A DNA stretch of 64,000 bases from Paraspadella gotoi (Eukaryota; Animalia; Chaetognatha): NCBI GenBank assembly GCA_051294375.1, contig CM119268.1:17362502-17426501 (forward strand), given 5' to 3'. The position numbers were made by a program, and so were the translations under genes. The notes below the pieces were generated by a model. The model searched no databases and was not told the origin of the DNA. It was given only the letters and a program-made list of their open reading frames with translations. This document shows, piece after piece, positions 7,018 through 55,895 of this stretch. How positions within the stretch are numbered: the stretch's first letter is position 1; each line of letters starts with the position of its first letter.

Positions 7018-8035
7018 AGTCAAGGGACGCAAAAATGTCACGGACCCGCCGCACAAAACCTCTTTTTAAAATGAGGTGATGGGTTATGGCCTGAATCCCT
7101 CTTACAAGATAATAACATAGCAGGACCCTTCAAGCTTCAATCAAGACTCTCTCACAGTCTCGTTTATTCACTCCCAGAGTACCTTGCTTCGATGAAGTGG
7201 TATAATATTTCAAAGAAGGTTTCAATTGAGCTTGGATCATAAAAAGGAGACAAGATATCACTTTGATTCACCAAAGAAAAAAACAAAATGAACCAATCAA
7301 TACTTGCAAAGCAATCAAGCTTGCTCACCATCTCCAGTGGCGAATTGCTTGACGGGCACGAAGTTGCTCCCGAAGAAGAGAACTGATACTCCGCAGGCGG
7401 CGAATCCGAGTCCTTGCGATATCGTGTCGTTGCTCGTCGAGTTGCCCGACGCGTAAATCGCCCAGTCGGGCGAGGAGTACGAGTGGAATTCCATTTTTTA
7501 ATAAAAATCGTGGAATTAAAAGGATAAATTGTTGCCAAGCATAAATTGGAAACTGGCTTGTGTTTATTTTACTTTTTTTATATTTTTTTTATCGTATTGT
7601 GTTTTTTGGGATCGCTTGGTTTGGTTTTGTCTTTTATTTTTAATTTATTTTTTTATTTGTAGGATTTGTTTCTGCGACTGTTTCGGAATCTCAATCCAAA
7701 TTATTTTCGGTTGTCGATTTCGCTTTCTTAATTATCTTCGATTTTTGATTTCACCCGACTTAGAGGCAGCTCTGACAATCGCGTCCATTTATCGCGTTAT
7801 CTGTTTTATCGCGTTTATCGTTTTACCACTTAATCCGTTTTATCTTTTTTCTTTCTTTGAGCCGATCGATGATGTTTGAGAATTAAGAGTATAGTTTATT
7901 TGAATCGTTTTATAATTGCAGTACGTGTTCGATAATTAAACAAGTCCTGAACGGGATTCATACGAAATATATCATTTAGTTCGTATTATACATTATCCTC
8001 AATTTCCTGGAGAAACCGGGTCCTGGTTCGTCACA
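7018..8035 (-). mobile_element. LTR (7036-8035) of an LTR retrotransposon with adjacent PBS-like site
   Basis: Minus strand begins TGTGACGAACC and ends GGTCCGTGACA (9/11 inverted match); AATAAA about 130 nt before the end; followed by TTTTTGCGTCCCT, resembling a primer-binding site TGGCGTCCCT. Confidence 0.6.
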
Positions 8036-9033
8036 TGATTATTGTTCAGAATTCAAAGCGAGACCCACGCAAAAGACAAGGATCGAGTTTATCTTTTTCT
8101 GCCCCTTTTAATTTAAGCTCTCCTTCTCTTCTCTTCTTCTTCCTCTTCCTCGAAATGTTATTCTTCTTCTTTTAGTTATTCTTCTTTATGTTTTTCTCTT
8201 CTTCTCCTTCGACACAAATAGAGTCATAACAACCGGCAGCAATCCTGCGCCGTTGAGACTGACTGCGCCGCGGCGTCCTGTCGAACTGCGGATTCAGCGG
8301 TGGTTGGAGGTTTTGGGTAGTGGAAACTGATTTAATAGTATAATTGTTTTATTGGTAGCCGAGAATAAACTATAGAATGGATGATTGGATAATTAGAAAC
8401 GCCTTCTTTCTCTCAAAAAGATTAAGTTTCTATTAAATTGGTAACAATTACTGTCTCTTCACAGATATATAAAATTATCCATACATTCAATAAATAAGCG
8501 CTCATTTACATTGTATTCATTTACTATCTAGTATTTACGAATTTACGTTGTTGTTTCCCCCATCCCAGATTTTATCTACTAAAACTAAGTTATCACATCG
8601 GACCATAATTTTACGTCACAAATAGTGCAGTAACATGCAAAGCTGATAGGTGAATTTTAAGAAATTGCACATTAGATTTTCATCGTTAGCGAAATTGTTA
8701 TGGTAAGCCGTCAGGGGAATAATTAGCAATTCTCTGGTTTAAAAAAAGTTTTTAAACGAGGCACCCCGACGCAACTCTCCCCGCCCTTAAGTTAATTCCT
8801 TCACAACGAGGAAACAGGAGAGATATTTACGGAAGTGAGACAGAGACAACGACAGAGTTAGAGTCGCGCACCCGCGATAGAAATCCATTGAGGATTGTTT
8901 TTTTTTGTGTGTACCAGAAATTGATTGTCCTTTTTGCGGAAAGCTGACGTACATACTGTATGTTAGGATGGTAAAAATAAATATTTTGAAAAAAAATCGT
9001 AAGAAATAAATACAAAAAGAAAAGAAATTGAAG

Positions 9034-13083: not shown

Positions 13084-14368
13084 TGTGTCTCCCTATCTCT
13101 CTCTGTTTTCCTCTTTCTCTGCTCTCTATCTCTCTTTCTCTTTCCGTTCTCTTCAATATTCATCACTCTCTTTATTTCTTTCAACAACCAAGCAAGCTTG
13201 TTAACCCCGAACTCTTTTTCCTGAACACAGTTTTTCACATCACATGATACGTATCTTTTTTCTCTTGTCATTGCGTTGTCGTCGTTGATATTATTCTTGT
13301 TTTTACCACTGTTCGATCCGCCTGCTATGCAAGCCGATATTTGAGAACGTTTGGACGGTCTTCTGTGCAAAAAAAAACAAAAACAAAAAAAGACATGATT
13401 TCTTGGATTGTAAATGGATTACAATGTCCTAATCGTCTTAATGATTTTGATTAGCCAGGTTGCCAGTATTATGGCATCGTAAACATATCATTTATTTAAG
13501 TAATAAATTTGAGATAGTTGAGCGAATTTTACGCAAAATCTAAAATTCTGATTGTGTCGATTCTTGATTATTCTAGATAATGAACAAGAGAAGGAATCTA
13601 TCGTCTTTGTTTGGTCATTAAATTTCCCTTTGTCGTATGTAGAAGTAGCACGAGCTGCAATTTTTTTCCTGAGTTGATGGTGACCAATAATTTATAGGGT
13701 AATTGCCGTGTACATTGGCAGCAACTATTAAAGCTTTCGTTGGTTTCTATAGGATCTATAATGTGACATTTTGAGGCAGGGATTGCATCGTTTTAAAAAG
13801 AAATTGACACCATTAATATGTTAAGACTAAAATTTGGAGGAAAGCATGCCATTGCTGACGTCCATCGTGCAATTATTAACATTAACTGATTAAGTTAGAA
13901 GGCATGGGTAACCTCCATCGAATGCATTAAGTATGTCGACATGGATGGCACCCTCAACATGGACCACGTTTATTTTTTTTTTCGCGCATGGTTGGCATCG
14001 TTAACGAGATCAACGGAGTCCGACGACCTTCATCCGGTTTTCACCCCAAGCGAAGATTGTTTACGAGGTCGTAGCTTTGTCCCGACGGAGAGCGTGGCAA
14101 GGGAGTGGCAGGGAATTGGCAGTGAAGTGGCGGTGGAGTGGCACGGACGTGGCGATAGAGTAATACGGAATTAGCTGTGAAGTGACAAAATGTGTGACGG
14201 AATAAAAATGACAGGCTTTGACTTGAAAGCGGAATCGTATTTTTTCAAATGAATTTACGAATGTCATTTATTTAAACGATTGACTAATCTGAAAAAAGTT
14301 TTTAGAGTACTCGGTCGGTTAGTAGGTCGGTTGTAGCGGTAGTATTTCATACCCCGTTACTCGTCCGA

Positions 14369-14615
14369 GAATCAGCAGCACCTATGGCGCCGGAGGTAGC
14401 ACGAGCTCCTCCCAACCCAAAGGACTCGGGTTCGCGCCCTGCTGATTCACACAAGTAAAAGCGGGACGGGGCGTCTAACCCACCTGTAGTGTCGGACTAC
14501 AGCCCGATCCGAAGTTCGGGACCTTGTGTGCAACGGACGGTAAACTGCTCGCGGCATCGTCTTCCACACGGTCGGTATATCTGGCCGTCGGTCTGGCCCA
14601 CTAACGCATATAATT
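14369..14615 (+). mobile_element. tRNA-derived SINE-like element carrying a predicted twister ribozyme, copy 1
   Basis: A-box-like TGGCGCCGGAGG, CTCCCAA anticodon-like loop, B-box-like GGTTCGCGCCC; collinear with 54310-54495 including tail CACTAACGCATATAATT. Confidence 0.75.
14448..14530 (+). ncRNA. Predicted twister ribozyme, type-P5 permutation, minimal P1
   Basis: P5 CACACAAG/CUUGUGUG; GA-CGGG; UAA-CCC-AC; P3 CUGUAGU/ACUACAG; P4 CCCGA/UCGGG with loop UCCGAAGU; T1 UCCG:CGGG; T2 AC:GU. Predicted cleavage between 14476 and 14477. Confidence 0.8.
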
Positions 14616-15858
14616 GGCCTATAGTTGGTTGCTCATTTGTTAAGACTGAAAAAAAAATCTCAATTCTAAGGGACTGCTAGCGCCCCCTTCAGGAAATTCT
14701 AAAACTATAAGGAATAAAAAACGGTATTTTGATGCAGTGCTTGTCATAAATACACGGGCGAAGAAAGTTAATAAGTTATTGTAGTCATGTCATGTCATTT
14801 CACGGGAAATACACGTGATAAGGCAGTCACTTCGGCGCAACACATTTGAATTACCGTTCTTGTTTTTGATATAGACAGTTTAGACACCTTCTCTGCTCTC
14901 TAAACTCTCTGCCCCTCTTTCCTTCTTGCTCCCTCAAAAAAAAAGCACACGTTTAATTCCGTTCGCCATTGACTCAAGGCAGCAGCGTCTGCGGCTGCGG
15001 GCTGCGGCGGACTTGGCGGCTGCGCTTGCTGTTGACAACTTCAGTTCAGTAATTTTTCAATGGGACTCCTCATGCGTGATCGTTTTCCATGTCTCTTCTC
15101 ATTCTCTTATTCTCCAGGTTTTCTCCGTTCTCCCGGTTCTCCTCATTCTCCCCGCGGTTATCACCGATTCTCCGCTCTATTGTTCTCCTCTGATTCTATC
15201 CATCATTCATCTCCGGATCGACGACGACGACGACGACGAGGCCGAGAAAAACAAGACGCCGCCGTCGAGAATGAGCGCCGGAGCGTTGAGCGACGATTTA
15301 GATCTTAGGCGCGCGGGAGGGGGGGCGGGAGGGGGGCGCTACTGGGAAAGCCTCTTTTAAAACCGCGCGAGATGAGAAAAATGATGAATTTTCTTTGGCG
15401 GAGGAGACGGACTTTTTGGAGCCGACGATAATCCCGATGATGCCGACGATGAAATAGAAGAATAATACTGCAAAGAAGAAGACGACGATGACAACGACGA
15501 TCACTATGGAGCTATCGATTTTTTATATTGCTCCAATTTACTATATTTTTTATTTCATACCTAAAATTTCCTAAGATTTGCCAACAAAAAAAATGAGAAA
15601 AAAAGTTACGATAATAATGACGACGATAAAGGCGACGAAAAAAAAAAATAATTAGGACGACAACGACGTCGACGACAACAACCAAGAGCGACGAGCGACA
15701 CCGAGCGTCAAAAAAGGGTGACATAGATGACGGAGATAAGAGATGGAGTGGCTCGAGTTGGTTGGTCGCTCTCGTTTTGCTTCTTTTCTAATTTTTTCTT
15801 TCTTTCTTTTTCTATATTCTTTCTTTAATTTTCTTTCCTTCTTTCTTTCTTTCTTTCT

Positions 15859-28110: not shown

Positions 28111-30991
28111 ATATAATTTGGTCTGAATTTTTTCAAAATGTTAAAAGCGCTCATGAAGACTCGAAACATGTCCGTTAAACAAATTTATCGTTTTTTGTTA
28201 AAATAGAAAACTCTCTCCTTTGTACACGAACATACATATTAATAGTATTATTAATAATTGTCTTAGGCAATCTTCAGTGCAACGGGTTTTTAGACTGCGG
28301 CGACGGCGCCGACGAGAAAGACTGTAGCAGATGCAACAACGGAGCATTTCACTGCAGCAACAACAACTGTCGAGAGGAAGTTGTGCTGTGCGACGGAAAG
28401 GTGGGTCGATGGCTATTGGCTCGCCGTTACTGCCGCTATAATATCTATTAGTCATTTAAAATAAAAACCAAACAAAATATTTTATTAAGAGCAATAATTA
28501 TGACAAAAATTTTGAACACGGGTCCTTCCCAATCTCTGTCTGACTGATCGCCGTAACATCTGTGTCACCTCCAACTCGACCGCCATCACCTCGACCGGCA
28601 CCTCTACCACCCCCACCTCGACCACCGCCACCGCCGCCACCCTTTTCCATTTCGACCTCCTCTCTTCCACCCGTCATAACGAAGACAACGACGCCGACGA
28701 CGACGATGGCGACGAAGTGAGCGACTCCCGCTCGAGCGACGTCGCCGCCGCATTTTCCGCCGAGTTCGACGCAGCCATCGCACTCGGCGCAGCACGTTCC
28801 TTCCGAGCTCCCTTCTGCGTATAAATCGATCAATCAATAAACCGAAACAATGAATCAATCAATGAAACGATGTACTAATAAGTCAATAAATCAATCAAAC
28901 GAAAAAAAATAAATAAAAAAATTAAAAATTAATTAATTAATTAATTAAATAAATAAATAAAATATAAAAAATAATTAAAAAAATTAAAAAAGAAAATATT
29001 TTAAAAAAATTTAAAAAATTTAAAAAATTAAAAATAGAAAAATAAAAAATAATAAAAAAATAAAAAATAAAAAAAATAATAAAAAAATAAAAAAATAAAA
29101 CAATAAAAAAATATAACAAAAAAAATAAAAAAAAAGAAAAAAAGAAAAAAAGAAAAAAGAAAAAAAGAAAAAAAAAAGAAAAAAAAGAAAAATAAAAAAA
29201 AAGAAAAAAAAAGAAAATAAAAAATTTAAAAATAAAAAAATTTAATAAAATAAAAAAATAATGAATTAACTAATTAATTAATTGATTGATCTATCTGCGA
29301 ATCAATCAATCAATCTATCGTAGGTCTCTCACTTTCCAAAAAGCAGCAACCGTCGTCGAAAGTCACGTTTCCTCTCTTTGGTTTCTCCGTTTGACAGAAA
29401 TAATTGGATCTGCAGTTGAATTCGCTCTCGATGAAACTCATTTCCATGAGAATAAAACACAAAATGACTAAACAAAAAAGCAAAAAGATGACGAGGGTCA
29501 ACTTCATTCCCAACGTGGGAACCAAGTTGTTGAAAAAGGCCGGCATTCTTTTTGTTATTATGTAAATGACCGATTTTAAAGGGAAAAAGTAAAAAGGGAA
29601 AAATTCGTAACGACGTTTTTTTTTTTTCAATAGTCAATTCTAGCTTCGAGTTGTATTAAATCAATTATTTTTGAGACGGTTATTATGATCTATATAATAA
29701 AGTTTATCAGAGCCTGAGATAAAATCCTGTTTTACCAAAACCTCTTTTGCCTCATAGGGACATTTTAATTCCCTTCTCCACTGTCTAAAATTGATACCCC
29801 AAAGGCCGGACGTTTTTAATAATTAATCATCATCAATCATCATCATCTTCATCATTATCATCTCCTCCATCAGGACGACTGCGGTGACGGGAGCGACGAA
29901 TCTCCCTGCCGCGACTCCTGCCGCAGCGACCTCCTGCGTCCGTTCAAATGCTCTAACTCGACCAAATGCGTCGCGGAATCCAAGAAATGCGACGGAGTTC
30001 GAGATTGCAAAGACGGATCAGACGAAAACGGGTCAGTGGGTGGGGGTGTGGACTTTGTGGAGGGGGTGTGGTTTGGCCGTTTCTTAGTTTGTTTGGTTTT
30101 GGACGGACGGACGGACGGACCGTCAAGGATGAAGACGGACGGACAGAAAGGACGATAGACAGGACAGATAAACGGTTAGACATACATAATGTCAGACAAA
30201 CCGGACCAAAAATAAACAAACGGACAGAAGGAGCGGTGGACAGATTTAACAATGTAGAGCATCTATAATAGGGAAAGGTAAGTCGTTCAACTTGTCCCTC
30301 CCCCCTCCAGTTGCCCTGGAGCTTCCTCCTCCTCTTCCTCCTCCTCCTCCGCCTGCCCAGCGAATGCACCCATCAGGCCGAGAGGCGACGATGTCTGCTG
30401 CGTCGCCCCCGAACAAATGTGCGACGGAAACCACGACTGTCTAGGGGGCGCCGATGAAGACACCTTCGAAGACTGCGAGAAATGTCCCGACGACAGGCGA
30501 GTGTGGTCGGGATGCGGTTTTGTGGGTTTGTGGGCAGGATTTGGAGATAGTGAGCAGGTTTTGCAGAGGGTTGTCCCTGGAGGTCGAGTGTAAAGTAGAA
30601 GAAAATAATTTTGCCAGCGGTAAAATTATTTTATCAGGGGAAGCCGGCAGTTAGGCGGTCTATCCGAGTCTTTTCCGCAGGATTTGTGGCGGCTACTAAC
30701 TGATCAGTCAATCAATCAATCGAGAATTTAGTACAAGTTACAGATGGTACTGTAGTTATCAGCTCAAATAAAATCGTAACGTAATATTCTTTCTCAAGGG
30801 ACCGATGCCGACAGTTCAAATTTTGTCCCGTTTTGGATTTATCGATCAATCAGTCAATCATATCTATCAGGCCCGTCCGTTGCGACGCGACTCTCGCCTC
30901 AGCCAAATGCATCGCAGCTTCTCTCCGCTGCGACGGACGCCGCGACTGCGACGGCGGCGAAGACGAAAACGACTGCGGCGGCGGCGTCGGT

Positions 30992-31022
<31 letters not shown>

Positions 31023-31149
31023 GCGTCGAGGACTGCCCTTCCGAAACGCATCTTCAGTGCAAAGGGTCTTCGATCTGCGAGGATAAGAGCAAAGCCTGCG
31101 ATGGGAGAAAAGACTGTCCTTCGGGTCAGTGGGGGAAGGAAAAAAAAAT

Positions 31150-31224
<75 letters not shown>

Positions 31225-31514
31225 GGAAAGTGAATTAATTTCGTTGACGTATTTCCCGATGATAACGTGACTACACAATTATCAAAACACTTGCAAAACA
31301 AGCTTCGTTGATTGTGAAATTTTGAAAATGTGAAATTTTAACTAAAATTACCATTGTTCTGTTGGTTCTTTACAGTTTTTTCTTTTTCAGGCGATGACGA
31401 ATCCGATTGCGATTTTTGCACCAACGACGCTTTTCTCTGCAAAAACGGAAATTGCGTCTCAAAAGGAAGAATTTGCGACGGAGTTGACGACTGCGGCGAC
31501 GGAAACAGGTTCAC

Positions 31515-31549
<35 letters not shown>

Positions 31550-34500
31550 TCTCTCTCTCTTCTCTCTCTCTTTGTTCTCTATCTCTGTCGAAATATCTTT
31601 TAAAACATTTTTTTTTGCAGATCCGACGAGCAAAACTGTGCCGGCAAACCTTCAGCTCAGGTTTGTGTTTTTTTTAATTTGATCTTTAAATTATCAATTA
31701 TATTATTTGACTTTTTATATTTGAAACATCTGATGTATTTTCTTCATGTTTTTGAAATTTTCAAAAACTTAGTTTTAATCCAATGCCTTAGAATTTCAAA
31801 AAAATTTTATTTGATTTTGTAAAGAAAATAAAATTATTTTCTGAAGAAAATAGTTTTATTCTGATTTTAAAGGTAGTGTCCTAGGCTAGTATAAACAATA
31901 AATTTAAATTCAGGCTCCAGCCAGATTACCGCGGTTATGAAAAATATTAAGGGATTGGTAAAAAAGCAACGTTTTTTTTTATTCACAGATCTGATTTAAC
32001 GTAGTTCCATCCCTTAATATTCGATTAATTTTAAAAAGCCGCTTATAAAAATAAACATTCCTTTCGTCATTATAAATATTTTTTCCCCTGCTCCCAACCC
32101 TCACTTCCGGAAACAAAACAAAACAAAAAAGCATCGAAAAACGAGAGAACAAATCCCGGGGATTCGAAATCGAGGAATAAGAACGAAAGTTCTTCTCTCG
32201 TTCCTTCTCGGAGTTTTCTCCTTGTTCTTCTCATCCTGTGAGATTTTCTTCACATTATTTCCAAAACTTCAGTTTCGAGTCGAAACGTATCTTTTTCTCT
32301 TTTTTTTATCAAATTTTATTATTCGTCTCTTCGTTGTACTTTTGTTTCACAGTGCTCACTCGTTATCTCACAATTTTTTTTTCCGGACACACAGTGAAAT
32401 TCGGATTTAACTCAGCGCGTCTTTTTATTGCGCGATATTTTTCGACAAGTTTGGATTCAAATTTAGCTGGAACGTTAAAACCGAGTTTCGCTGTCGCACG
32501 TTAAATCTATCTCTGCTGCAATAGAGTTTCATTTATCGAATAAAAAAAAAACCCGCGTACATGAAAACATTTATATTTGGCATCGAACGCGCAGACGACA
32601 ATGTCATAAATAACTCTTAAACCCATAGATAATATTTTCTTTTTAATTTTATCCAGGCATGCCCTTCAAAAACGGCCCTCTGAAAGAAGAAGAACCGACT
32701 GCATCTATTCGCGCCTCAAGCTACGCATGACTTACCAGCTCATCTCGACGCTGTAGTATCTTCACGACCGCTAACAAATTTCATAAATGATGTTCTNNNN
32801 NNNNNNATCTCGACGCTGTAGTTTCTTCACGACCGCTAACAAATTTCATAAATGATGTTCTAAAGATTGATTCAAGAATTGAGGATAAGAAAAAGGCTAA
32901 TTTGAAAACCAATTTGAATAGACTTAGATTCGTAAGAAGTCCGTCGGAAGATGAAGCGTCGTCTTCATCGTCCCCAGGAGAGAGATTATTTTATTAAGAG
33001 CATAATTATGACCAAAAATTTTGGAACCGGGTCCTTCCCAATCTCTGTCTGACTGATCGCCCGTAACATCTGTGGCACCTGACATACTCGGACCACATCC
33101 AGCCACACTCCAAGACGCCACCTCTAACCACCCCCACTCTCGACCACCGCCACCGCCGCCACCCTTTTCCTTTTCGACCTCCTCTCTTATCCACCTCATA
33201 ACGAACGACAACGACGCCGACGAGACGATCGCCGACGCAAGTGAGCGACTCCCGCTCGGAGCGAAACGTGCCGCCCGCATTATTCCGCCGAGTTCGACGC
33301 AAAGCCATCGCACCCGGCCAGGCACGTCCCTTCACGAGCTCCCTTCTGACGTATAAATCGATATCATAAGACATACAACAATGAATCAATCAATTGAAAC
33401 GATGTACTAATAATCAATAAATCAATCAAACGAAAAAAAAATCAATAAAAAAAAATTTACAAATTATAATTAGATTATTAAATAAATAAGTTAAATAAAT
33501 AAATAAAAAATAAGTAAAATGAATTTAAAAAAATTAAAAAATAACAATTTTTAAAAAAATAAAAAAAAAAATAAAGTAAAATGAAAAAAAAATAGATAAA
33601 AAATAAAAAAAAAATAATAAAAAATAAAAAATAAAAATAAAAAAAAAAAAAAGAAAGAAAAAAAAAATAAAGAAAAAAAAATAAAAAAATAAAAAAATAA
33701 TGTAAAAAATTTAAAAAAAATAAAAAAAAAAAAAAAAAAGATTAACGTACATTAATTAATGAATTGATCTATCCTGCGAATACATCAATCAGATCTATCG
33801 TAGGCTGGCTCACTTTCCAAAAAGCAGCAACCGTCGTCGAAAGTCACGTTTCGCCTCTTTGTTTTCCGTTTGACAGAAATATTGGAATCTGCAGTTGAAT
33901 TCGCTCTCGATGAAACTCATTTCATGAGAATAAAACACAAAATGACTAAACAAAAAAGCAAAAAAGACTGACGAGGGTCAACTTTCTTCCCAACGTGGGA
34001 ACGCGAAGTTGTTGAAAAAGGCCGGCATTCTTTTTGGGTTATTAATGTAAATGACCGATTTTAAAGGGAAAAAGTAAAAAGGGGAAAAAATTCGTAACGA
34101 CGTTTTTTTTTTCAATATGTCAATTCTAGCTTCGAGTTGGTATTAAATCAATTATTTTGAGAACGTTATATGATCTATATATAAAGTTTATCAGAGCGCT
34201 GTAGATAAAATCCTGTTTACCAAAACTCTTTTGCCTCATAGGGACATTTTAATTCCCTTCTCCACTGTCTAAATTGATACCCCAAGGCGACGTTTTTAAT
34301 AGATTAATCATCACAATCATGCATCATGCTCATCATATAATCTGCTCTCCATCAGGACGACTGCGGTGACGGGAGCGACGAATCTCGCACTGCGCGACTC
34401 CTGCCGCAGCGGACGCTCCTGGCGTCCGTTCAAATGCCTAACTCGACTCAAACTGCGTCGCGGGAATCCAAGAAAATGCGACGGAGTTCGAGATTGCAAA

Positions 34501-35624
34501 GCGGATCAGACGAAACGGGGTGCAGTGGTGGGGGTGTGGACTTTGTGGAGGGGGTGTGGTTTGGCCGTTTCTTAGTTTGTTTGGTTTTGGACGGACGGAC
34601 GGACGGACCGTCAAGGATGAAGACGGACGGACAGAAAGGACGATAGACAGGACAGATAACGGTTAGACATACATAATGTCAGACCAAACCGGACAAAAAA
34701 ATAAACAACGGACAGAAGGAGCGGTGGACAGATTTAACAATGTAGAGCATCTATAATAGGGAAAGGTAAGTCGTTCAACTTGTCCTCCCCCTCCAGTTGC
34801 CCTGGAGCTTCCTCTCCTCTTCCTCCTCCTCCTCCGCCTGCCCAGCGAATGCACCATCAGGCCGAGAGGCGACGATGTCTGCTGCGTGCGCCCCGAACAA
34901 ATGTGCGACGGAAACCACGACTGTCTAGGGGGCGCCGATGAAGACACCTTCGAAGACTGCGAGAATCCGACGACAGGCGAGTGTGGTCGGGATGCGGTTT
35001 TGTGGGTTTGTGGGCAAGGATTTGGAGTAGTGGACAGGTTTTGCAAGGGTTGTCCTGGAGGTCGAGTGTAAAGTAAGAAGAAAATAATTTTGCCAGCGGT
35101 AAAATTATTTTATCAAGGGGAAGCCGGCAGTTAGGCGGTCTATCCGAGTCTTTTCCGCAGGATTTGTGGCGGTTACTAACTGATCGGTCAATCAATCAAT
35201 CGAGAATTTAGTACAAGTTACAGATGGTAACTGTAGTTATCAGCTCAAATAAAATGCACGTAATATTCTTTCTCAAGGGACCGATGCGACAGTTCAAATT
35301 TTGTCCCGTTTTGGATTTATCGATCAATCAGTCAATCATATCTATCAGGCCCGTCCGTTGCGACGCGACTCTCGCCTCAGCCAAATGCATCGCAGCTTCT
35401 CTCCGCTGCGACGGACGCCGCGACTGCGACGGCGGCGAAGACGAAAACGACTGCGGCGGCGGCGTCGGTGGCGGCGGCGGGCGGCGGCGGCGCAGCAGCG
35501 TCGAGGACTGCCCTTTTCCGAAACGCATCTTCATGGCAAGGGTCTTCGATTGCGAGGATAAGAGCAAAGCCTGCGATGGGAGAAAAGACTGTCCTTCGGG
35601 TCAGTGGGGAAGGAAAAAAAAAAG

Positions 35625-35668
<44 letters not shown>

Positions 35669-35679
35669 TATAATAAATA

Positions 35680-35710
<31 letters not shown>

Positions 35711-36026
35711 TATATTAATATAATACCGGAAAAGTGAATTAATTTCGTTGACGTATTTCCCGATGATCAACGTGACTACACAATTATCAAAAACACTTGA
35801 AAACAAGCTTCGTTGATTTGGAAATTTTTGAAAATGTGAAATTTTTAACTAAAAATTACCAATTGTTCTGTTGGTTCTTTACAGTTTTTTCTTTTTCAGG
35901 CGAGACGAATCCGATTGCGATTTTTGCACCAACGACGCTTTCTCTGCAAAAACGGAAATTGCGTCTCAAAAGGAAGAATTTGCGAGACGGAGTTGACGAC
36001 TGCGGCGACGGAAACAGGTTCACGTC

Positions 36027-36074
<48 letters not shown>

Positions 36075-37515
36075 CTCTCTTTTTCTCATCTCTGTCGAAA
36101 TATCTTTTTAAAAACATTTTTTTTTGCAGATCCGACGAGCAAAACTGTGCCGGCAAAACCTTCAGCTCAGGTTTGTGTTTTTTTTAATTTGATCTTTAAA
36201 TTATCAATTATATATTATATTGATTTATTTATATTTGAAACATCTGATGTATTTTCTTCATGTTTTTGAAATTTTCAAAAAACTTAGTTTTAATCCAATG
36301 CCTTAGTAATTTCAAAAGATTTTATTTTGATTTTGTAAAGAAAATAAAATTATTTTCGAAGAAAATAGTTTTATTCTGATTTTAAAGTAGTGTCCTAGGC
36401 TATATAAAACAATAAATTTAAATTCAGGCTCCACCAGATTACCGCGTTATGAAAAATATTAAGGGATTGGTAAAAAAAGCAACGTTTTTTTAATTCATAA
36501 GATCTGAATTAACGTAGTTCATCCCTAATTAATTTTATTTTAAAAAGCCGCTTATAAAAAATAAACATTCCTTTCGTCATTATAAATATTTTTTCCCTGC
36601 TCCCAACCCTCACTTCCGGAAAAAAAACAAAACAAAAAAGCATCGAAAAACGAGAGAACAAATCCCGGGATTCGAAATCGAGGAATAAGAACGAAAGTTC
36701 TTCTCTCGTTCCTTCTCGGATTTTCTCCTTGTTTTTCTCATCCTGTGAGATTTTCTTCACCCATTATTTCCAAAACTTCAGTTTCGAGTCGAAACGTATC
36801 TTTTTCTCTTTTTTTTATCAATTTTATTATTCGTCTCTTCGTTGTCTTTTGTTTCACAGTGCTCCATTCGTTATCTCACAATTTTTTCCGGACACACAGT
36901 GAAATTCGATTTAACTCAGCGCGTCTTTTATTGGCGATATTTTTCGACAAGTTTGGATTCAAATTTAGCTGGAACGTTAAAAACCGAGTTTCGCTGTCGG
37001 CACGTTAAATCTATCTCTGCTGCTATCGAGTTTCATTTATCGAAGTAAAAAAAAAACCGCGTACATGAAAACATTTATATTTGGCATCGAACGCGCGAGA
37101 CAATGTCATAAATAACTCTTAAACCCATAGATAATATTTTCTTTTTAATTTTATCCAGGAATGCCCTTCAATAAACGGCAAACCTCTGAAAGAAGAAGAA
37201 CCGACTGCATCTATTCGCGCCTCAGCTACGCATGACTTACCAGCTCATCTCGACGCTGTAGTTTCTTCACGACCGCTAACAAATTTCATAAATGATGTTC
37301 TAAAGATTGATTCAAGAATTGAGGATAAGAAAAAGGCTAATTTGAAACCAATTTGAATAGACTTAGATTCGTAGGAGTCCGTCGGAAGATGAAGCGTCGT
37401 CTTCATCGTCCCCAGCACAGCCGACACTCCGCAGCCTTCTTCTACATCAAGATCCGATACTTCGCCTGTAACTACGACATTNNNNNNNNNNNNNNNNNNN
37501 NNNNNNCAACATCAA

Positions 37516-52580: not shown

Positions 52581-55895
<3,315 letters not shown>

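What the first reader, a model, noticed from the sequence alone, without database searches (positions are those of the whole stretch)
14369..14615. tRNA-headed dispersed element carrying a circularly permuted (type-P5) twister ribozyme
Seen: two divergent copies (here and 54310-54495), each a tRNA-like head immediately followed by P5-[AA(AA)]-GNGG-GA-CGGG-5 nt-UAA-CCC-RC-P3-P4(loop UCCGAAGY)-P5'. Differences are compensatory: P5 CACACAAG/CUUGUGUG vs GCAGUU/GACUGC; P3 CUGUAGU/ACUACAG vs CUGUAACA/UGUUACAG; P4 CCCGA/UCGGG vs CCUGA/UCAGG; T2 AC:GU vs GC:GC; T1 UCCG:CGGG invariant. Known: twister ribozymes have UAA at the cleavage site, GA before the T1 strand, an L4 of form UCCNAAGC and two pseudoknots; P1 is dispensable in mini-twisters; Schistosoma Sm-alpha is a tRNA-related SINE with a hammerhead. 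Inference: a Pol III-driven, self-cleaving SINE/retrozyme-like family under selection for ribozyme structure. I do not recognise this tRNA-head plus P5-twister combination as described. Caveats: P1 is a 5-nt linker and P2 is only 2-3 bp, possibly bulged.
Basis: partly seen in the sequence, partly recalled or inferred. Interest (0 to 1): 0.92.

Follow-up and report, generated by a model that had tools for sequence, protein, structure and literature searches.

The report
Twister ribozyme inside tRNA-headed solo LTR
A roughly 235-base repeat in an animal genome has the ends of a retrotransposon long terminal repeat (LTR), a tRNA-like head and a twister-type ribozyme motif; it is likely the lone LTR of a small retrotransposon whose RNA is predicted to cut itself, a combination my literature searches did not find described.

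Summary
In detail: two ~72% identical copies carry a tRNA-like head followed by a type-P5-ordered twister motif. A twister descriptor hits only these two sites in the window, against 2 hits in 1274 shuffled windows. Catalytic U^AA and GA and both pseudoknots are intact, and 8 of 31 compared pairs change on both sides (1 is broken).

The SINE reading is not the best one. Contigs of public runs set copy 1 at 14332-14568, with TGTAG...CCACA ends and a CGGT 4-bp direct repeat. Copy 2 (54277-54510) has the same flanking repeat. This is solo-LTR anatomy, closest to Helenus TRIMs (tRNA-like LTR, 4-bp TSD, no ribozyme reported) and plant LTR retrozymes (hammerhead in the LTR).

Likely mechanism (inferred): Pol III transcription, twister cleavage in both LTRs, circularisation, then Gypsy-type integration.

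Against: no Rfam twister or tRNA hit, a vestigial P1 (6 nt versus 14-25 nt in 84 of 84 phage P5 twisters), A-U where P4 normally closes with G-C, and a competing hairpin. No two-LTR element, PBS/PPT, cleavage or transcript was seen. New variant of a known kind.

The parts
14328..14331 (.). left copy of 4-bp flanking direct repeat CGGT (likely target-site duplication)
   Evidence: sequence; abuts the read-defined left end
14332..14568 (+). copy 1, 237-bp solo-LTR-like element, ends TGTAG...CCACA
   Evidence: laid contigs start at 14332/3 and end at 14567/8 with variable flanks; summed depth 3.6-6.9e5 versus 189 outside in run X2
14333..14360 (+). 5' hairpin upstream of the tRNA-like head
   Evidence: 2 double-sided changes and 1 single-sided change against copy 2; pair probability 0.44 in copy 1, 1.0 in copy 2
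14362..14367 (+). 5' strand of closing stem P0 (pairs with 14534-14539), enclosing head and ribozyme
   Evidence: 6 of 6 pairs kept, 2 double-sided changes; probability 0.95
14369..14448 (+). tRNA-like head: A-box-like 14385-14396, B-box-like GGTTC at 14429, 44 nt apart as in tRNA; folds as a long stem with two invariant arms rather than a cloverleaf
   Evidence: sequence; arms 10 of 10 pairs identical in both copies; no ARAGORN or Rfam tRNA hit
14448..14530 (+). twister-type motif in P5 order; predicted cleavage U14476/A14477, general-base G14465
   Evidence: activity untested
14534..14568 (+). 3' strand of P0, 3' hairpin region and CA end
14569..14572 (.). right copy of CGGT
54273..54276 (.). 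left CGGT of copy 2 (the direct repeat can also be read as 5-6 bp)
54277..54510 (+). copy 2, 234 bp, diverged subfamily; ends TATGG...CTTCA; boundaries inferred from the window alone
54310..54381 (+). tRNA-like head of copy 2 with acceptor-like stem; A-box-like at 54318, GGTTC at 54362
54385..54458 (+). twister-type motif of copy 2; predicted cleavage U54408/A54409
54511..54514 (.). right CGGT of copy 2

Best explanation
Both copies are likely solo LTRs of a small non-coding LTR retrotransposon family whose LTR carries a tRNA-like, likely Pol III, promoter and a twister-type motif that is predicted to self-cleave at U14476/A14477. Shown: defined TG...CA ends, a 4-bp flanking repeat, very many copies, the twister sequence and pairing pattern, and compensatory changes from the 5' hairpin to the P0 stem. 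Inferred: in a two-LTR parent, Pol III starts in the 5' LTR and the twister cuts in each LTR. This gives a unit-length RNA with a 5'-OH at A14477 and a 2',3'-cyclic phosphate at U14476 of the other LTR. The open P5 helix and P0 would hold those two ends together for ligation by a host tRNA ligase, rebuilding one whole LTR in a circle. A Gypsy-type partner would reverse-transcribe and integrate it, and LTR-LTR recombination would leave solo copies like these two. My odds by step: twister-derived fold 0.85, still cleaves 0.6, LTR-type element 0.7, circular intermediate 0.4.
For: Boundaries from contigs of four public runs coincide with TGTAG and CCACA. TGTNR is the Gypsy LTR end pattern (PMC2836005 passage). 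The same CGGT flanks both copies. Animal Helenus and plant retrozymes make 4-bp TSDs and leave solo LTRs. Descriptor: 2 hits in the window versus 2 in 1274 shuffles. Of 31 pairs in the 5' hairpin, P0, P3, P4, T1, T2 and P1, 20 are identical, 8 change on both sides, 2 on one side and 1 is broken; P5 keeps 6 of 6 pairs with unrelated sequence. The T1 variant (L4 UCCGAAGC with GACGG) occurs in phage twisters: 13 of 31 distinct matches have a perfect P2 and strong P1, and 7 of 7 tested pass Rfam's Twister-P5 cut-off. A 3-nt P2 strand is also natural: 52 of 56 distinct matches are fully paired, and 8 of 8 tested pass the cut-off. Type-P1 twisters tolerate P1 and P2 imperfections but not loss of the catalytic A or G (PMC11662667), and P1 is dispensable (PMC5408937). 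The model from 35 phage twisters ranks the two copies first and second in 64 kb. The 5' hairpin and P0 covary although they lie upstream of the A box, which fits an RNA that contains the LTR's 5' part.
Against: No Rfam twister or tRNA hit. My own model scores are weak (22.2 bits, E 0.002, in a wrong register for copy 2; 10.8 bits, E 0.8, for copy 1). The P1 linker is 6 nt against 14-25 nt in 84 of 84 structured phage P5 twisters; a short-linker scan gave 1 pass in 48 distinct matches, near chance. P4 closes with A-U where G-C is 'essentially invariant', and no convincing phage example of A-U was found in 18 matches. The third P2 pair is a mismatch or needs a bulge, and the structure review describes P2 as four pairs. 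A competing GGG/CCC hairpin dominates the pseudoknot-free ensemble (0.65 and 0.99; P2 0.01 and 0.0). No second LTR, PBS or PPT lies near either copy, and no two-LTR or tandem joint appears among the 15 of 43 joints shown. Copy 1's flanks hold 6 CGGT in 120 bp, so its repeat could be chance. Copy 2's ends were picked from 11 candidate repeat pairs because they are in register with copy 1. Copy 1's B box lacks the A58-equivalent. One contig end in run X5 has a T6 run just before the terminal ACA, which would stop Pol III inside the LTR.
Confidence: 0.5

Rival explanations
1. The element is LTR-like, but the twister is an inactive relic or is normally masked. The conserved structure is a four-way junction (P5, GGG/CCC hairpin, P3, P4) that serves packaging, stability or recognition by the partner retrotransposon.
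For: The hairpin fold is 7-12 kcal/mol better than the twister secondary structure when pseudoknots are not counted and dominates the ensemble. There are three departures from the twister consensus (P1, third P2 pair, P4 closing pair) and no Rfam hit.
Against: The hairpin does not explain the invariant UAA, GA and L4 bases or the T2 double change. In copy 1 it shrinks to 3 bp because of the very change that keeps T2 paired. Plant retrozyme hammerheads are also predicted in a blocked conformation yet cleave.
Confidence: 0.25
2. One reading: a tRNA-headed SINE or non-LTR retrozyme like Schistosoma Sm-alpha, copied by a LINE or Penelope-like element, with twister in place of hammerhead.
For: tRNA-like head with A/B spacing, very high copy number, and precedent for ribozyme-bearing Pol III SINE-like repeats. 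Twisters occur at 5' ends of RTE non-LTR elements.
Against: Fixed TG...CA ends and a 4-bp repeat; non-LTR retrozymes are tandem and have larger TSDs. About 50 conserved nt lie upstream of the A box, there is no A-rich or tandem tail, and neither copy is tandem.
Confidence: 0.12
3. A non-autonomous DNA transposon of the Ginger1 kind (Gypsy-like integrase, GC-rich 4-bp target) or another unit that moves as a single monomer and carries a structured Pol III RNA as cargo.
For: Ginger1 has TGTNR ends and specific GC-rich 4-bp TSDs (CCGG, CCGT/ACGG). Both copies here share CGGT, and only single units were seen.
Against: Ginger1 has 40-270 bp terminal inverted repeats; here the terminal inverted match is only 2-3 bp. 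CGGT is not one of the listed targets.
Confidence: 0.08
4. The twister resemblance is a chance product of a GC-rich, tRNA-derived structured repeat.
For: The descriptor was written after seeing the sequence, the two copies are related and so not independent, and Rfam is silent.
Against: 0.0016 hits expected per shuffled window; an independent phage-derived model ranks both copies on top; variant positions match those of natural twisters.
Confidence: 0.05

Closest known systems
Helenus TRIMs / TRIMp3 (Kojima 2024, PMC10886601)
   Same: tRNA-like sequence inside a 104-323 bp LTR with TG...CA ends, GGTTC in box B, 4-bp TSD in animals, solo LTRs, some families known only as LTRs, up to thousands of copies
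   Different: In the Helenus LTRs I read the tRNA-like part sits near the 3' end before a T-run; here it sits in the 5' half and is followed by a twister motif. The paper reports no ribozyme (0 occurrences of 'twister'). No internal region, PBS or PPT was seen here.
Plant LTR retrozymes (Cervera et al. 2016, PMC4918200)
   Same: self-cleaving motif inside an LTR, 4-bp TSD, solo LTRs, non-coding and highly structured, ribozyme predicted in a blocked fold
   Different: type III hammerhead, plants, 300-400 bp LTRs, no tRNA-like promoter in the passages read; here an animal genome, a twister motif and a tRNA-like head; circular RNA not shown
Type-P5 twister ribozyme (Rfam RF02684)
   Same: order P2'-GA-T1'-linker-UAA-P2-T2-P3-P4/L4; catalytic A and G; both pseudoknots; T1 swap and 3-nt P2 also seen in phage members
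   Different: P1 reduced to a 6-nt linker, A-U closing P4, imperfect third P2 pair, A-U in T2 of copy 1, an actual long P5 helix; below Rfam detection
Schistosoma Sm-alpha SINE-like repeats and metazoan non-LTR retrozymes (PMC6765202, PMC7229834)
   Same: animal repeat with a ribozyme and, for Schistosoma, a Pol III/tRNA part
   Different: type I hammerhead, tandem arrays, larger TSDs, no LTR-type ends
Twister variants of Perere-3/RTE non-LTR elements (PMC8501958)
   Same: twister with reduced P1 in an animal retroelement
   Different: type-P1 order at the 5' end of a coding non-LTR element, with the TSD next to the cleavage site; here the site is internal to a non-coding LTR-like unit

Membership tests
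Twister ribozyme (type P5) | U^AA cleavage motif and general-base G followed by A | tested here: met
   both copies
Twister ribozyme (type P5) | 8-nt L4 forming pseudoknots T1 (3 bp) and T2 (2 bp) | tested here: met
   T1 CCG:CGG in both; T2 AC:GU and GC:GC; T1 variant natural in phage twisters
Twister ribozyme (type P5) | P2 helix | tested here: inconclusive
   2 pairs plus a mismatch or bulge; a 3-bp P2 is natural; competing hairpin
Twister ribozyme (type P5) | P1 hairpin capping the active site | tested here: not met
   6-nt linker with at most 1 bp, versus 14-25 nt in 84 of 84; P1 reported dispensable in open-ended constructs
Twister ribozyme (type P5) | G-C pair closing P4 | tested here: not met
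   A-U in both copies; no convincing phage example in 18 matches
Twister ribozyme (type P5) | Rfam RF02684 score at or above 37.6 bits | tested here: not met
   no hit at E<=10; positive control 17 of 20 phage loci
Twister ribozyme (type P5) | site-specific self-cleavage | not testable with these tools
   needs an in vitro assay
Helenus / TRIMp3 | LTR-type TG...CA ends | tested here: met
   copy 1 TGTAG...CCACA at read-defined ends; copy 2 TATGG...CTTCA
Helenus / TRIMp3 | 4-bp TSD (animals) | tested here: met
   CGGT at both copies; no empty site seen, and local CGGT richness weakens copy 1
Helenus / TRIMp3 | tRNA-like A and B boxes in the LTR | tested here: inconclusive
   GGTTC and YGG present and 44-nt spacing; TRGCY not fully matched; no ARAGORN or Rfam hit
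Helenus / TRIMp3 | two LTRs with internal PBS and PPT | tested here: inconclusive
   absent at these two loci; no genome is held for this window, so parents elsewhere could not be sought
LTR retrozyme | hammerhead ribozyme in the LTR | tested here: not met
   no hammerhead hit; twister-type motif instead, so 'would work like', not 'is a member'
LTR retrozyme | abundant circular RNA between cleavage sites | not testable with these tools
   no run on record as RNA was listed
tRNA-derived SINE | element begins at the tRNA head and ends in an A-rich, repeat or LINE-like tail | tested here: not met
   conserved 5' hairpin and P0 upstream of the head, sharp CA end, no tail
Ginger1 DNA transposon | 40-270 bp terminal inverted repeats | tested here: not met
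   ends share only 2-3 inverted bases

The most novel reading that the evidence does not exclude
This is the LTR of the first animal LTR retrozyme: a Pol III-driven TRIM that uses an active, minimal type-P5 twister, with its own P5 and P0 helices clamping the cut ends for ligation, to make a circular RNA intermediate, so joining the TRIMp3 and retrozyme strategies in one element and giving a eukaryotic twister a concrete job.
Probability: 0.35. Interest if true: 0.85.

Novelty: new variant of a known kind. Interest (0 to 1): 0.68.

Why it matters
The biological role of twister ribozymes is largely open; the cases I read concern 5' ends of non-LTR elements. The ribozyme-bearing LTR elements in the papers I read are plant hammerhead retrozymes, and the tRNA-promoter LTR elements (Helenus) were described without ribozymes. 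A high-copy animal family joining both would extend the circular-RNA route of retrotransposition to animal LTR-type elements. It would show a natural P5 twister working with almost no P1, and it would mean that standard Rfam scans miss a class of eukaryotic twisters. The claim is cheap to test: one ~95-nt transcript and one predicted bond.

Tried and rejected
Rfam scans of the window and of both copies gave no twister or tRNA hit; ARAGORN found nothing. No genome is held for the window, so no genome-wide copy set could be built.

Relatives elsewhere: a head-plus-core pattern gave 0 matches in metagenome contigs. A core-only pattern gave 14 loci there and 1 in viral contigs; none has the tRNA-like head or the P3/P4 arrangement, and I judged all unrelated.

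Expression: no RNA holder was listed. Run X9 is only guessed to be RNA and covers the neighbouring repeat too, so it is not used. Copy 2's boundaries and copy number were not checked with reads.

Host identity: a TMEM144-like exon and LDL-receptor class A repeats point to an animal; a homologue search and an atlas search gave nothing narrower.

An HDV-like or hammerhead reading of the head was considered by eye and rejected. A 21-nt match of copy 2's 3' end at 8442-8462 (E 0.09) and a B-box-like match at 7390-7415 (E 0.03) were not accepted as copies. The two head-arm rows were misregistered by my indexing; they were dropped and redone. The P5 rows were left out of the 31-pair count because their register is arbitrary. 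L257 (6-nt linker, A-U closing P4) is one weak phage parallel near chance level and is not counted as support. Earlier scan findings held nothing on this element. The supplement of PMC11662667 could not be read; it may hold tested twisters with the same variants.

Full report
OBSERVATION. The two segments are in the window as described. They align at 71.6% over 141 columns (E=4e-12), and nhmmer finds no third copy in the window. I wrote a twister descriptor (P4-closed L4, T2, UAA, GA plus T1, two P2 pairs) after seeing the sequence. It recovers 25 of 31 phage pattern matches, hits only the two copies in the window, and hits twice in 1274 block-wise dinucleotide shuffles. Both copies fold better than shuffles (z -2.9 and -3.3), as do their reverse strands.

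TRUE EXTENT. I laid contigs of 4 of the 9 listed runs on 14200-14800 at 80% likeness. Depth is flat and low up to about 14325 (189 in X2), then 3.6-6.9e5 across most of the element. Several long pieces begin at 14332/14333 and many end at 14567/14568, where the flanking sequence is variable (agreement about 0.4-0.5). The tool warns that summed depth is no copy number; I take it only as showing a very high-copy family, of the order of thousands by ratio (inference). These ends read TGTAG...CCACA and are flanked by CGGT on both sides. Copy 2 has CGGT on both sides of a 234-bp unit, 54277-54510, whose 5' hairpin is in register with copy 1. I chose that pair from 11 candidate direct repeats, and it was not checked with reads. 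Copy 1's flanks are CGGT-rich (6 in 120 bp), which weakens its repeat taken alone.

STRUCTURE UNDER SELECTION. Over the 5' hairpin, the closing stem P0, P3, P4, T1, T2 and the one-pair P1, 31 pairs were compared: 20 identical, 8 changed on both sides, 2 on one side, 1 broken. P5 is kept with unrelated sequence (6 of 6 pairs; register arbitrary, so not counted). The two arms of the head are identical in 10 of 10 pairs. Covariation therefore starts within a few bases of the element's 5' end, upstream of the A box. Two sequences cannot give a formal covariation test. In the read table (40 of 85 rows shown), the only change inside the ribozyme that is common in the two deep runs is in the P3 loop (14492). 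A P2 change (14464) and a P3 change (14496) are rare there, though one contig in X5 carries both. None of the rows shown touches UAA, GA, T1, T2 or L4; this is weak because 45 rows were hidden.

IS IT A TWISTER? Rfam does not detect it, even on 85-91 nt stretches, whereas 17 of 20 phage control loci pass the Twister-P5 cut-off. I tested each departure against natural phage twisters. The T1 swap is natural: 13 of 31 distinct P5-order matches have a perfect P2 and strong P1, and 7 of 7 tested pass the cut-off. A 3-nt P2 strand is natural: 52 of 56 distinct matches are fully paired, and 8 of 8 tested pass. Two departures have no good phage precedent. The P1 linker is 6 nt against 14-25 nt in 84 of 84 (1 of 48 short-linker matches passes). 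P4 closes with A-U, with no convincing case in 18 matches. The third P2 pair is mismatched or bulged, and a GGG/CCC hairpin outcompetes P2 in pseudoknot-free folding. In the literature, P1 is dispensable (PMC5408937, passages and section 11). About 94% of tested natural type-P1 twisters cleave and tolerate P1/P2 imperfections but not changes at the catalytic A and G (PMC11662667, abstract and sections 31-33, 35); P5 permutants were not tested there. I judge the fold twister-derived (0.85) and activity likely but open (0.6).

THE HEAD. Neither ARAGORN nor Rfam calls a tRNA. Both copies have GGTTC 44 nt after the start of an A-box-like motif, the spacing of positions 8 and 52 in a standard tRNA (established knowledge), and copy 2 has an acceptor-like stem. 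Copy 1's B box lacks the A58-equivalent. A resemblance to initiator tRNA-Met is recalled only and was not tested. Promoter function is inferred.

WHAT KIND OF ELEMENT. TG...CA ends, a 4-bp repeat, ~235 bp and a tRNA-like segment match the LTRs of Helenus TRIMs (PMC10886601: parts 1-4 of 6 of the text, supplement parts 1, 7, 8, 11 of 11 and two motif searches). Animal Helenus families make 4-bp TSDs, are thought to depend on Gypsy elements, and some are listed with an LTR only. That paper has no occurrence of 'twister', and the motif passages shown revealed no twister core in its consensus set (line breaks can hide matches, and not all occurrences were shown). A ribozyme in an LTR with a 4-bp TSD and solo LTRs is the design of plant LTR retrozymes (PMC4918200, passages). 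Animal retrozymes are described as tandem, non-LTR and with larger TSDs (PMC7229834, passages). Neither copy has a second LTR, PBS or PPT nearby, and no genome was available to look for parents. Membership of Helenus is therefore unproven, and membership of retrozymes in the strict sense fails on ribozyme class. The host is an animal by a TMEM144-like exon and LDL-A repeats, not resolved further.

MECHANISM (inferred beyond the anatomy). In a two-LTR parent, Pol III would start at the head of the 5' LTR and the twister would cut once in each LTR. The unit-length RNA then begins with the 3' half of the LTR and ends with its 5' half. Because this twister is opened at P5, those two halves pair through P5, P2, T1 and P0. 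That would juxtapose the 5'-OH and cyclic-phosphate ends for a host ligase; RtcB circularises animal retrozyme RNAs efficiently in vitro. This also accounts for covariation upstream of the promoter. A Gypsy-type enzyme set would copy and integrate the circle, and recombination would leave solo LTRs. One difficulty: a contig end in run X5 shows a T6 run before the terminal ACA, which could terminate Pol III. The two window copies have no run of four or more T after the ribozyme within the element.

NOVELTY. Ten literature searches listed no paper describing a twister in a tRNA-headed LTR, TRIM or SINE. The library covers only open PMC and bioRxiv texts, and Repbase and Dfam could not be searched. 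Other papers seen: PMC8501958 (parts 1 and 3 of 9), and passages only of PMC7761336, PMC6765202, PMC11933835 and PMC2836005. No relatives were found in metagenome or viral contigs.

VERDICT. A real, selected RNA structure in a high-copy LTR-like repeat; a new variant combining two known designs; cleavage, transcription and the two-LTR parent are untested. Interest 0.68.

Noticed in passing
window ~14585-14790: A second, unrelated high-copy repeat family starts just after copy 1 (summed depth similar to the element's), with short GTCAT repeats near its 3' end; class unknown.
   Followed up: no
window 14389-14441: In runs X5 and X9 a few very deep contigs match only the tRNA-like head with several fixed differences and other flanks, suggesting another tRNA-related repeat or gene sharing this head.
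   Followed up: no
L189-L239 (IMG/VR contigs): Type-P5 twisters with a 3-nt P2 strand are common in phage contigs (52 of 56 distinct matches paired), often several per contig (five in L229), although a structure review describes P2 as four pairs.
   Followed up: partly
L047-L188 (IMG/VR contigs): Many phage twisters of both P1 and P5 order carry the swapped T1 pair (UCCGAAGC with GACGG); 4 of 5 P1-order ones tested match twister-P1 below Rfam's cut-off.
   Followed up: partly
L257 61-95 (-): Possible phage P5 twister with a 6-nt P1 linker and A-U closing P4, like the window's motif; near chance level.
   Followed up: partly
L003, L004, L007-L010, L012, L013: Eight metagenome loci share a conserved palindromic element bordered by short TAACCCC/GGGTTAG-type repeats, like a bacterial REP-type repeat; unrelated to the finding.
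   Followed up: no
window ~29800-31700 and ~34600-36200: Near-duplicate blocks of LDL-receptor class A repeat exons; the second copy looks frameshifted (recent duplication or assembly artefact).
   Followed up: no
window 14094-14175: 11-bp tandem GTGGC-type repeat about 160 bp upstream of copy 1.
   Followed up: no
window 8442-8462 and 7390-7415: Weak matches to copy 2's 3' end and to copy 1's B-box region; possibly decayed fragments, possibly chance.
   Followed up: partly
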